Notes: generated from the sequence alone by a model not told the origin. Positions 63,045-64,000 are shown, counted from the stretch's first letter. The stretch: DNA of 64,000 nucleotides from Nitrospiraceae bacterium (GCA_003599025.1 QZIL01000002.1:1371-65370), one strand, 5' to 3'. Made by a program: numbers and translations.

Positions 63045-63251
63045 TTATAAAGCTCCATGATGCACACCATTCCCTCCATTTTTCTTTATCCCGTTCCCTC
63101 CATGCATGAGCGCCGTCTGTGCGACTTCGACCTCCTCGGATTTTTCTACCCGCCCGAGGCTGCCCTGGGTGAAGTTGATTTTTAGGTACCCGCTGAATTC
63201 CTCATCGGAAAGACTCTTGATTGCATCGGCAAGTCTTTTCATTCTGTCCAT
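63045..63251 (-). CDS. Small protein, YezD/DUF2292-like; first gene of the TPS operon
   Basis: Start at ATG 63251 (ACAGGAGGTttatca-ATG). FSGYLKINFTQGSLGRVEKSEEVEV resembles the DUF2292 pattern (GSVTIxxxxGRVVQIEKTEK). Confidence 0.4.
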   Translation of the reverse strand: MDRMKRLADAIKSLSDEEFSGYLKINFTQGSLGRVEKSEEVEVAQTALMHGGNGIKKNGGNGVHHGAL

Positions 63252-63493
63252 TGATAAACCTCCTGTCATAAGTCAAACCTCGTGATATGAACTTATTGAA
63301 TTACACTTCAATGCCACACATTGGAAAGTAAATGCAACAGAGAATTACAAGTTGATGACTGGTATCGTACCACCCGCTTTGTTAATACATCATTACATGG
63401 TTGTTAAACTTTTATTAAAAGAAAGTAAGGGCGTCGGAGTAAAGATTTTTTCCATTCAGCCGATAATGAATGCCAGGATATGCAACACTATTA

Positions 63494-63584
63494 GTCGTTT
63501 TCGATAAAGGCAAACCATGGGCAACCATGGGACGCAAAGCCACGGGTCCCGATTATCGGGACAGCCGGGTCGCCGAAAAAACGA
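63494..63584 (+). ncRNA. c-di-GMP-I (GEMM-I) class riboswitch aptamer
   Basis: The conserved core is GGCAAACC(63509-16)-AUGG-GCAA-CCAU-GGGACGCAAAGCC(63529-41), with a 6-bp CCAUGG/CCAUGG stem capped by a GNRA loop. The second hairpin is CGG-GUCCCGA-UUA-UCGGGAC-AG-CCG, followed by GGGUCGCC. The closing P1 stem pairs UUUUCG(63498-503) with CGAAAA(63574-79). This is a near base-for-base match to the invariant blocks of the V. cholerae Vc2 aptamer as I remember it. Confidence 0.8.
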
Positions 63585-63638
63585 GTCCCTCCGGAGCAGG
63601 GCCGTTTTCGGTAAGCAAAACAGCTTTGGGAGGGATGG
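63585..63638 (+). promoter_or_regulatory. Riboswitch expression platform with anti-SD element
   Basis: UCCCUCC (63586-92) is complementary to the SD GGAGGGA (63629-35) of the protease gene. CCGUUUUCGG (63602-11) can compete for the 3' strand of P1. Confidence 0.5.
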
Positions 63639-64000
63639 ATGTTCAATCCGCAGAGGCTCATCGTCATTATTTTTTTTCTCATCGGCATTACTGCATCAGG
63701 AAGCAATAAGACAATCTCAGACCACACCTTAAAACCCCACTTTATTCCCCGCGATGTTTATTATTCATGGCAGTGGCATCTGCCCGGGATAAAGGCCCCT
63801 GCCGCATGGGACATTACAAGGGGAGACCCGGGGGTCATCATTGCGGTGCTTGATTCAGGAGTGGACAGCGCACACCCGAACTTAAGCGGAGGCAAGGTGA
63901 TGAACGGGTATAATTTTGTCGATGATACTTCAAATACATTGACCGATTCCTATGGACACGGGACCATGATCGCGGGAATTGCAGCGGCCCCCACTGGAAC
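63639..64000 (+). CDS. Subtilisin-like (S8) serine protease, N-terminal part; gene runs off the window end
   Basis: Not in the ORF track because there is no stop in the window. It reads MFNPQRLIVIIFFLIGITASG (signal) ...WHLPGIKAPAAWDITRGDPGVIIAVLDSGVDSAHPNL (catalytic Asp) ...DSYGHGTMIAGIAAA (catalytic His). Confidence 0.85.
   Translation, partial: MFNPQRLIVIIFFLIGITASGSNKTISDHTLKPHFIPRDVYYSWQWHLPGIKAPAAWDITRGDPGVIIAVLDSGVDSAHPNLSGGKVMNGYNFVDDTSNTLTDSYGHGTMIAGIAAAPTG

What the first reader, a model, noticed from the sequence alone, without database searches (positions are those of the whole stretch)
63494..64000. GEMM-I cyclic-dinucleotide riboswitch controlling a subtilisin-like protease, divergent from the TPS operon
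The 5' leader of the S8 protease gene contains the invariant GEMM-I blocks in the correct order and pairing context. These are GGCAAACC, a GNRA-capped hairpin, GGGACGCAAAGCC, a second hairpin, GGGUCGCC and a closing P1. Downstream, UCCCUCC can sequester the SD GGAGGGA. The three ORFs listed by the track across this region are artefacts.
Biologically the placement is suggestive. In Bordetella the TpsA protein FhaB is matured by a subtilisin-like protease (SphB1). Here an S8 protease gene sits head-to-head with the TPS operon and would be under second-messenger control.
Ligand identity is open. The base just 5' of GGCAAACC is A here (AAAGGCAAACC), whereas Vc2 has AGGGCAAACC. A G-to-A change at the nearby specificity position is what distinguishes 3',3'-cGAMP-sensing GEMM-Ib variants. 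I cannot map the numbering reliably by eye.
Basis: partly seen in the sequence, partly recalled or inferred. Interest (0 to 1): 0.6.

Follow-up and report, generated by a model that had tools for sequence, protein, structure and literature searches.

The report
c-di-GMP riboswitch before a protease gene
A textbook RNA sensor for the bacterial "settle down" signal c-di-GMP sits in front of a secreted subtilisin-type protease gene. It probably shuts the protease off when the signal is high, which is an ordinary control scheme in a neat genomic setting.

Summary
Window 63500-63578 (+) is a full-length class I c-di-GMP riboswitch aptamer. It scores 75.8 bits on RF01051 (cut-off 35) and 73.3 bits on RF03167 (cut-off 59). 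It ends 60 nt before the start codon of a 352-aa thermitase-like S8 protease with an intact catalytic triad.

The three ligand-contact bases are canonical: G20=63509, A47=63536, C92=63573. The expected ligand is therefore c-di-GMP. The Rfam "GGC-variant" label is a cross-hit.

The same leader precedes every close orthologue of this protease, five sequence types in all. It is 88% identical although synonymous sites of the gene are saturated.

The leader can form three mutually exclusive helices: P1, an anti-P1 hairpin built on a repeat of the P1 5' strand, and an anti-SD:SD helix. This predicts a translational OFF switch, but it must be kinetic and is untested.

The cassette lies, in opposite orientation, inside a widely conserved locus: GEMM-I riboswitch (mostly predicted ON), PEP-CTERM protein, then the giant TpsA operon. 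About 60 other such loci lack the protease, so an SphB1-like dedicated role is weakly supported. This is a new member of a known kind, of modest interest.

The parts
63494..63504 (+). 5' strand of the extended P1 helix (GUCGUUUUCGA)
   Evidence: It pairs with 63574-63584 as 9 bp with a 2-nt bulge in the MFE folds. All P1 cells pair in 6 aligned leaders.
63500..63578 (+). c-di-GMP-I (GEMM-I) aptamer, type with a GYRA (GCAA) tetraloop
   Evidence: RF01051 scores 75.8 bits against a cut-off of 35. RF03167 scores 73.3 bits against a cut-off of 59. My own model R1 scores 100 bits.
63509..63509 (+). Equivalent of Vc2 G20, which recognises G-alpha of the ligand; it is G here
   Evidence: It is the last unpaired base before the G-C/C-G two-pair helix in both Rfam alignments. 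The role of G20 is described in PMC6140456.
63536..63536 (+). Equivalent of Vc2 A47, which intercalates between the two ligand bases; it is A here
   Evidence: The RF01051 consensus is GACGCAAAgCc and the RF03167 consensus is GACGCGAAgCc. The window has GACGCAAAGCC, so it mismatches the GGC model at exactly this column.
63573..63573 (+). Equivalent of Vc2 C92, which forms a Watson-Crick pair with G-beta; it is C here
   Evidence: It is the second of the two unpaired bases (GC) between P2 and the 3' strand of P1 in the cmscan alignment. The role of C92 is described in PMC6140456.
63573..63584 (+). Switching sequence: 3' strand of P1 (CCGAAAAAACGA, includes C92)
   Evidence: It can pair either with 63494-63503 (P1) or with 63602-63611 (anti-P1).
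63586..63592 (+). Anti-SD (UCCCUCC)
   Evidence: It is complementary to 63629-63635. Together with 63593-63597:63623-63627 it forms a 12-bp helix of about -27 kcal/mol.
63602..63611 (+). P1 mimic (CCGUUUUCGG), a near-repeat of the P1 5' strand CGUUUUCG
   Evidence: It pairs with 63573-63583. This pairing potential is kept in all five orthologue types despite indels between the two sub-helices.
63573..63611 (+). Anti-P1 (anti-sequestor) hairpin enclosing the anti-SD
   Evidence: It folds at -12.6 kcal/mol alone. In the nascent transcript that ends before the SD it holds 0.97-1.0 of the ensemble in four orthologue types and 0.29 in L126.
63586..63635 (+). SD-sequestering hairpin
   Evidence: It is part of the MFE of the full leader. 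It pairs in 87.5% of cells over 6 leaders.
63628..63634 (+). Shine-Dalgarno sequence GGGAGGG
   Evidence: It lies 5 nt upstream of the ATG.
63639..64000 (+). Start of the S8 (thermitase-like) protease gene. The full gene is 352 aa and ends 697 nt beyond the window (G000:C2:65009-66067).
   Evidence: Pfam Peptidase_S8 E=6e-49. Thermitase 1THM E=1.7e-57. Asp72, His107, Asn198 and Ser260 are present and conserved. dN/dS is 0.13-0.19.

Best explanation
Window 63494-63638 is the 5' leader of a secreted thermitase-like S8 protease mRNA. It contains a canonical class I c-di-GMP riboswitch.

Most likely it acts on translation as an OFF switch, in three steps:
1. Without ligand, the 3' strand of P1 (63573-63584) pairs with a downstream copy of the P1 5' strand (63602-63611). 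The resulting hairpin locks the anti-SD (63586-63592) inside it, so the SD stays free when it emerges.
2. With c-di-GMP bound, P1 and the binding pocket hold the 3' strand.
3. The anti-SD is then free to capture the SD (63628-63634), and the protease is not made.

Shown: the aptamer, its canonical contact bases, its strict linkage to this protease family, and the three competing pairings. Inferred: ligand binding, the direction of the switch, and that the decision is made during transcription.
For: Aptamer:
- Scores are 75.8 bits on RF01051 and 73.3 bits on RF03167 over the full models.
- G20, A47 and C92 are canonical.

Linkage to the protease:
- The aptamer sits about 60 nt before the start codon in all five close orthologue types: window, G003, SKS1.bin28, L129 and L126-128.
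- This holds also where the neighbours differ.
- No S8 homologue at 52% identity or less that was checked has it.

Selection on the leader:
- The leader is 88% identical although dS of the adjacent gene is 1.0-2.3.

Switch mechanism:
- No terminator-like site lies on the + strand.
- P1, anti-P1 and the sequestor can each pair in 87-100% of cells across the leaders.
- The A-to-G change at column 85 stays pairable in both P1 and anti-P1.
- Before the SD is transcribed, anti-P1 beats P1 by 2-8 kcal/mol in all five types, which is the size of gap that ligand binding can overturn.
- G003 replaces the anti-SD but gains GUUUUCCG:CGGAGGGC pairing. It shows SD accessibility of 0.50 without P1 and 0.21 with P1.

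Precedent: the zmpI protease of C. difficile is under a class I c-di-GMP riboswitch and is repressed by c-di-GMP (PMC6366702).
Against: - At equilibrium the sequestor helix (-22 to -27 kcal/mol) beats the anti-P1 hairpin (-12 to -15 kcal/mol). Predicted SD accessibility is therefore low with or without P1 in 4 of 5 orthologue types. The model works only if folding is kinetically controlled.
- There is no significant covariation. The five leaders are too alike and shuffles reach the observed scores.
- No RNA-seq data exist for this organism.
- Ligand binding and regulation are untested.
Confidence: 0.6

Rival explanations
1. The riboswitch is an ON switch acting on transcription. The anti-P1 hairpin followed by UUUU would be a weak intrinsic terminator that forms without ligand. 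c-di-GMP would stabilise P1 and allow read-through.
For: The hairpin 63582-63604 is GC-rich at its top and is followed by UUUU. An A-tract lies upstream of it, as in many terminators. The pepA-type GEMM-I switches in the same loci are mostly predicted ON.
Against: - The U run is only 4-5 nt in all orthologue types. It is followed by a conserved CGG that pairs with the CCG of the P1 strand, so the Us lie inside a helix.
- The terminator scan finds nothing on the + strand.
- Read-through RNA with P1 formed would still have its SD masked by the conserved anti-SD.
Confidence: 0.12
2. The aptamer binds c-di-GMP, but the SD is masked in both states. Regulation would then act at another level, such as mRNA stability, Rho access or a trans-acting factor, or it would only fine-tune a mostly silent gene.
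For: Equilibrium ensembles give the same low SD accessibility with and without P1 in 4 of 5 orthologue types.
Against: A near-exact repeat of the P1 5' strand is kept exactly where it can compete for the P1 3' strand. The whole platform is conserved at 88% against saturated synonymous sites. Both point to a working switch.
Confidence: 0.15
3. The ligand is not c-di-GMP but 3',3'-cGAMP (GEMM-Ib) or the unknown ligand of the Rfam c-di-GMP-I-GGC variant.
For: cmscan keeps RF03167 as the best clan member by E-value.
Against: - Position 20 is G, not A. Position 47 is A, not the G of the RF03167 consensus. Position 92 is C.
- RF01051 gives the higher bit score.
- RF03167 passes its cut-off in 94 of 301 Nitrospirota genomes. 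All 22 top hits I could parse have A at position 47, so the label is a cross-hit.
Confidence: 0.05
4. Biological role: the protease is the dedicated maturation or release protease of the neighbouring giant TpsA, analogous to SphB1. This concerns the role of the protease and is not exclusive of the switch mechanism above.
For: The cassette lies head-to-head with the first gene of the TPS operon in 4 of 5 orthologue types, across TpsB identities of 63-100%. TpsB orthologue and protease co-occur in the same 2 of 61 related genomes.
Against: - 63 of 65 loci with an orthologous TpsB show no S8 gene in the fetched flanks.
- One cassette (L126-128) lies between an acyltransferase gene and a flagellar rod gene.
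- The protein has no autotransporter domain and no lipobox. With only a signal peptide it is predicted to be periplasmic or secreted.
Confidence: 0.2

Closest known systems
c-di-GMP-I (GEMM-I) riboswitch, Rfam RF01051; type example Vc2 of Vibrio cholerae
   Same: It has the same fold: P1, a two-pair helix plus a GNRA-capped hairpin, and a second hairpin. The contact bases G20, A47 and C92 are the same. It also lies in a 5' leader.
   Different: The tetraloop is GCAA (type 2) rather than GAAA with a receptor. P1 is extended to 9 bp. The expression platform is specific to this protease family.
c-di-GMP-I-GGC variant, Rfam RF03167
   Same: The scaffold is very similar. The window scores 73.3 bits, above the family's cut-off of 59.
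   Different: The single consensus difference at a ligand-contact column (G in place of A47) is not present here. I do not file the element under this variant.
Cdi-1-12 / zmpI of Clostridioides difficile (class I riboswitch repressing a secreted protease that releases c-di-GMP-induced adhesins; PMC6366702)
   Same: A class I c-di-GMP riboswitch sits in front of a secreted protease gene. The predicted repression by c-di-GMP matches. Neighbouring surface-protein genes lie under c-di-GMP riboswitches of the opposite predicted sign.
   Different: The protease there is a zinc metalloprotease, not an S8 enzyme. The partner switches there are class II and the host is a monoderm. The mechanism there is transcriptional. 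Here the substrates and the direction of the switch are only predicted.
LapD/LapG control of the giant adhesin LapA in Pseudomonas fluorescens (from my own knowledge)
   Same: The logic is the same: low c-di-GMP gives an active protease and loss of a giant surface adhesin.
   Different: LapG is a cysteine protease controlled post-translationally by a c-di-GMP-binding protein. No RNA sensor is involved, and LapA is a type I secretion substrate.
SphB1/FhaB of Bordetella (from my own knowledge)
   Same: A subtilisin-family protease is linked with a two-partner-secretion adhesin.
   Different: SphB1 is a large lipoprotein autotransporter. Here the enzyme is a 352-aa thermitase-like protein with no such domains, and most related TPS loci lack it.
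Thermitase (PDB 1THM) and Ak.1 protease (1DBI)
   Same: Residues 36-311 align with the whole mature enzyme at E=1.7e-57. The Asp/His/Ser triad and the oxyanion Asn are present.
   Different: The window's protein and its G003 orthologue lack the roughly 80-aa N-terminal prodomain that the other three orthologue types keep. They carry a 40-aa C-terminal tail.

Membership tests
c-di-GMP-I riboswitch (RF01051) | Covariance-model score at or above the gathering score (35 bits) over the full model | tested here: met
   75.8 bits, model positions 1-87, E=4.9e-15.
c-di-GMP-I riboswitch (RF01051) | P1, a two-pair helix plus a GNRA-capped hairpin, and a second hairpin, in that order | tested here: met
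   Seen in the cmscan structure line and in the MFE fold. In 6 leaders, 100% of cells pair in P1, the two-pair helix and the first hairpin, and 90% in P2.
c-di-GMP-I riboswitch (RF01051) | Ligand-contact bases G20, A47 and C92 | tested here: met
   G63509, A63536 and C63573, by alignment to both Rfam consensus sequences. The roles of G20 and C92 are from PMC6140456. The role of A47 is from my own knowledge of the Vc2 structure.
c-di-GMP-I riboswitch (RF01051) | Binds c-di-GMP and changes gene expression | not testable with these tools
   Needs in-line probing or ITC, plus reporter assays.
c-di-GMP-I-GGC variant (RF03167) | Score at or above the gathering score (59 bits) | tested here: met
   73.3 bits.
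c-di-GMP-I-GGC variant (RF03167) | G at the A47-equivalent. This is my inference of what the name means, drawn from the one consensus difference at a contact column; the defining paper PMC5358364 is not held. | tested here: not met
   The window has A at 63536, shown as a blank in the match line. All 22 parsed top RF03167 hits in Nitrospirota also have A.
GEMM-Ib (3',3'-cGAMP riboswitch) | A in place of G20 | tested here: not met
   63509 is G in the window and in all orthologous leaders.
Peptidase S8 (subtilase), thermitase group | S8 domain with the Asp-His-Ser triad in that order and an oxyanion Asn | tested here: met
   PF00082 E=6e-49. D72, H107, N198 and S260 are conserved in 5 orthologues. 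1THM E=1.7e-57.
Peptidase S8 (subtilase), thermitase group | N-terminal prodomain (intramolecular chaperone) | tested here: not met
   It is absent in the window and G003 (352 aa) and present in SKS1.bin28, L129 and L126 (421-432 aa). dN/dS of 0.13-0.19 still indicates a functional gene.
Mycosin (TIGR03921) | Score above the curated cut-off (278.75 bits) | tested here: not met
   223.5 bits. No C-terminal membrane anchor is seen.
SphB1-type TpsA maturation protease | Lipoprotein signal and C-terminal autotransporter domain | tested here: not met
   Only the S8 domain is found in the 352 aa. The signal region has no Cys.
SphB1-type TpsA maturation protease | Cleaves the partner TpsA | not testable with these tools
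   Needs genetics or biochemistry.

The most novel reading that the evidence does not exclude
Two class I c-di-GMP riboswitches of opposite sign could form an RNA-only toggle inside one adhesin locus.

At high c-di-GMP, the switch before the PEP-CTERM surface protein at the head of the giant-TpsA locus would turn its gene on. The inserted, oppositely oriented switch would shut off the S8 protease.

At low c-di-GMP the protease would be made and would trim or release these surface proteins.

This would be a diderm, riboswitch-based counterpart of LapD/LapG and of ZmpI/CD2831. It would have been acquired as a mobile riboswitch-protease cassette.
Probability: 0.25. Interest if true: 0.55.

Novelty: new member of a known kind. 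Interest (0 to 1): 0.35.

Why it matters
The element adds a subtilase to the set of secreted proteases placed under class I c-di-GMP riboswitches. It does so in an uncultured subsurface Nitrospirota lineage (class Thermodesulfovibrionia).

It shows that a riboswitch and its gene can travel as one unit. The same cassette is found in two genomic contexts.

It also shows that the giant-TpsA locus studied earlier in this genome has a widely conserved head led by a c-di-GMP riboswitch.

On the practical side, Rfam's RF03167 model labels many canonical Nitrospirota GEMM-I riboswitches as "GGC variants". Automatic annotation of ligand variants there should be checked at the contact bases.

Tried and rejected
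- The paper that defined the GGC variant could not be read. I inferred the definition from the two Rfam consensus sequences.
- Two metagenome DNA-pattern scans for more leaders gave nothing orthologous. One hit (L060) is an unrelated tandem GEMM-I from a high-GC organism. The genome-collection scan returned only the two known relatives.
- Covariation tests on six leaders are not significant.
- Equilibrium two-state modelling did not reproduce a switch in 4 of 5 orthologue types. Only the truncated-transcript (kinetic) view did.
- No RNA-seq or metatranscriptome run holds this stretch.
- I considered that riboswitch 1 (RS1, the one before the protease) is a recent copy of the riboswitch before the neighbouring pepA-like gene (the PEP-CTERM surface protein; RS2). 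I rejected this. RS1 has the G21-C46 pair and the pepA type has C21-G46, and their platforms differ.
- I considered a frameshift in the diverged C-terminal stretch of the window's protease. No other reading frame restores the motif seen in the orthologues.
- I considered a sigma-70 promoter for the leader. None was found in the window by the scan, although L126 has a clear TTGACA-N17-TAGACT.

Full report
**1. What is there**

Infernal matches 63500-63578 (+) over the full length of two related Rfam models:
- c-di-GMP-I-GGC (RF03167): 73.3 bits, cut-off 59, E=5.5e-17.
- c-di-GMP-I (RF01051): 75.8 bits, cut-off 35.

It is the only Rfam match above threshold in the 64-kb window.

The window is G000:C2:1371-65370. 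The genome has six class I hits. The other five precede two multihaem cytochrome genes, two fibronectin-III surface-protein genes and a PEP-CTERM protein gene. This is the usual gene set for the class.

**2. Which ligand**

cmscan keeps RF03167 only because clan competition goes by E-value. The bit score is higher for RF01051.

The two consensus sequences differ at one ligand-contact column: GACGCAAAgCc in RF01051 and GACGCGAAgCc in RF03167. The window has A there (63536).

The base just before the two-pair helix, equivalent to Vc2 G20, is G (63509). The base before the P1 3' strand, equivalent to C92, is C (63573).
- G20 reads G-alpha and C92 pairs with G-beta. cGAMP riboswitches have A at position 20 (PMC6140456).
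It is A in both Rfam consensus sequences.
- The site is therefore the canonical c-di-GMP site.

RF03167 passes its own cut-off in 94 of 301 Nitrospirota genomes. All 22 top hits that I could parse have A at position 47. In this phylum the label is a cross-hit.

I could not read the paper that defined the variant. My reading of "GGC" as G20/G47/C92 is therefore an inference.

**3. What it controls**

The next gene starts at 63639, with the SD GGGAGGG five bases upstream. In the genome it runs 352 aa.
- It is a Peptidase_S8 protein (E=6e-49).
- The nearest solved relatives are thermitase and Ak.1 protease, aligned over the whole mature enzyme.
- Asp72, His107, Asn198 and Ser260 are present.
- It has a signal peptide, but no lipobox, autotransporter or membrane anchor.
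- It misses the mycosin cut-off.

A search of 5.8 billion proteins found only four close relatives at 65-72% identity. The next hits are at 52% or less and are longer thermitase-like enzymes with a prodomain.

All five orthologue types carry the same aptamer about 60 nt before the start codon. None of the more distant S8 loci that I checked does.

Three orthologue types keep an N-terminal prodomain of about 80 aa. The window and G003 have lost it. dN/dS is 0.13-0.19 throughout, so the gene is under purifying selection.

Synonymous sites are saturated (dS 1.0-2.3), yet the leader from P1 to the ATG is 88% identical. The whole leader, not just the aptamer, is under selection.

**4. How it probably works**

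No terminator-like site follows the aptamer. The leader offers three competing helices.

(a) P1 is extended to 9 bp: 63495-63503 pairs with 63574-63584.

(b) The anti-P1 hairpin is formed when the P1 3' strand, including C92, pairs with 63602-63611. That segment is a near-repeat of the P1 5' strand (CGUUUUCG against CGUUUUCGG). The hairpin encloses the anti-SD and pairs part of it (CCCU:AGGG).

(c) The sequestor is formed when 63586-63597 pairs with 63623-63635 and covers the SD.

All three can form in every orthologue type. Indels fall between the sub-helices, and an A-to-G change stays pairable in both (a) and (b). G003 has lost most of the anti-SD but can mask its SD with GUUUUCCG:CGGAGGGC.

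In transcripts that end before the SD is made, anti-P1 is favoured over P1 by 2-8 kcal/mol in all five types. Ligand binding could reverse a gap of this size.

The logic resembles thiM-type OFF switches. Without ligand the anti-SD is locked away and the gene is translated. With ligand P1 holds, the anti-SD is free, and the SD is masked.

The weak point is that at equilibrium the sequestor (-22 to -27 kcal/mol) beats anti-P1 (-12 to -15 kcal/mol). The SD is then predicted to be masked in both states in 4 of 5 types. The switch must therefore be kinetic, with the ribosome competing against refolding.

There is no significant covariation, and no transcript data exist.

My confidence is about 0.95 for a c-di-GMP class I riboswitch of this gene and about 0.55 for the OFF direction.

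**5. The setting**

I fetched 65 loci with TpsB orthologues from Nitrospirota, Desulfobacterota and Pseudomonadota.

The S8 gene is present in only two of them, G003 and SKS1.bin28.

A covariance model built here found a class I aptamer in 23 of them. In 19 it lies on the same strand as the TPS operon and upstream of it.

The first ORF behind these aptamers is a protein of about 250 aa. It ends in a VPxPA/PEP-CTERM sorting signal in 17 of the 20 first ORFs that are neither the S8 protease nor TpsA. A protein of 400-450 aa follows, then the small first gene of the TPS operon, an FKBP-like gene, TpsB and TpsA.

The window's genome keeps this order on its minus strand. A second riboswitch at C2:69916-69992 leads a 245-aa pepA-like protein and a 430-aa PBP-like protein.

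The riboswitch-protease cassette lies between that unit and the TPS operon, pointing the other way. G003 and SKS1.bin28 have the same layout, including the second riboswitch. A fourth orthologue type (L129) also abuts the TPS genes. The fifth (L126-128) sits between an acyltransferase gene and a flagellar rod gene.

The conserved unit is therefore riboswitch plus protease. It behaves like an inserted cassette.

With the same equilibrium test, the pepA-type switches come out ON in 12 of 17 and OFF in none. The window's own second riboswitch scores flat in that test. A separate fold shows that its P1 3' strand (CCUGAG) can pair with the SD region (CUCAGG), which points to ON. The protease switch comes out OFF or flat, and never ON.

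**6. Comparison with the known**

The element is a member of RF01051. It is not a GGC or cGAMP variant, because the defining bases were tested and not met.

The closest functional precedent is C. difficile. There the protease ZmpI is repressed through a class I c-di-GMP riboswitch, and the adhesins it releases are induced through class II riboswitches (PMC6366702).

LapD/LapG uses the same logic through proteins (from my own knowledge).

The SphB1 analogy rests on adjacency alone. The protein lacks SphB1's domains, and most related TPS loci lack any such protease.

Earlier notes of this scan report class I c-di-GMP switches before protease and surface-protein genes in other phyla. The arrangement is therefore ordinary.

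**7. Verdict**

This is a new member of a known kind, of modest interest.

The attractive idea of a toggle made of two opposite riboswitches, which would decide between displaying and shedding surface proteins, is not excluded and is testable. It rests on predicted directions only.

Noticed in passing
window 63361-63409 (read on the minus strand, upstream of the 74-aa ORF): A motif of about 50 nt (TGTAATrAT .. TTAACAAAGC .. TGGTAACATAsC) is conserved upstream of the first TPS-operon gene. It occurs in loci with the protease cassette (L061, L119) and without it (L062, L064, L065, L085). It is a candidate promoter or operator of the TPS operon.
   Followed up: partly
window 63045-63269 (-): The 74-aa ORF is a real, conserved small gene. 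Its first 50 or so residues recur at 48-78% identity in front of the FKBP-like and TpsB genes in 17 loci. It matches no Pfam or NCBIfam family.
   Followed up: partly
G000:C2:67823-69992 (about 4.5 kb beyond the window's end), and loci L062-L117: A second class I riboswitch, followed by a pepA-like VPxPA/PEP-CTERM protein and a PBP-like protein, forms a widely conserved head of this type of giant-TpsA locus. It occurs in 19 of 65 loci across three phyla. In two loci (L091, L108) an aptamer sits directly before tpsA.
   Followed up: partly
G000:C66:6424-6511 (-) and G000:C19:5575-5663 (-): Two class I aptamers before fibronectin-III surface-protein genes have U at the C92-equivalent (..GGUUGUCGAA). 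This is a change at a ligand-contact base and could alter specificity.
   Followed up: no
G000:C2:66831-67697 (-): Two adjacent ORFs (137 aa and 138 aa) are one 288-aa gene for a beta-propeller-like region plus a DsbA-like domain, with an in-frame TGA at the first Cys of the redox motif (FSDYQ-TGA-PYC). It is a likely selenocysteine UxxC protein. The best NCBIfam hit is a thioredoxin-like (seleno)lipoprotein family.
   Followed up: partly
G000:C2:70916-72240 (-): There is a group II intron: domain V/VI matches RF00029 at 52.9 bits, next to a 416-aa reverse-transcriptase ORF. It lies just upstream of the second riboswitch.
   Followed up: no
Nitrospirota genomes G017-G343 (loci L130-L158): Rfam RF03167 (GGC variant) exceeds its gathering score in 94 of 301 Nitrospirota genomes. 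All 22 top hits that I could parse carry the canonical A47. The family cut-off does not separate the variant from canonical aptamers in this phylum.
   Followed up: partly
S8 protease, residues 22-35 (window 63702-63743) compared with orthologues: The window's protease and its G003 orthologue have lost the prodomain of about 80 aa that the three other orthologue types keep. They nevertheless evolve under purifying selection. How they fold without the prodomain is unexplained.
   Followed up: partly
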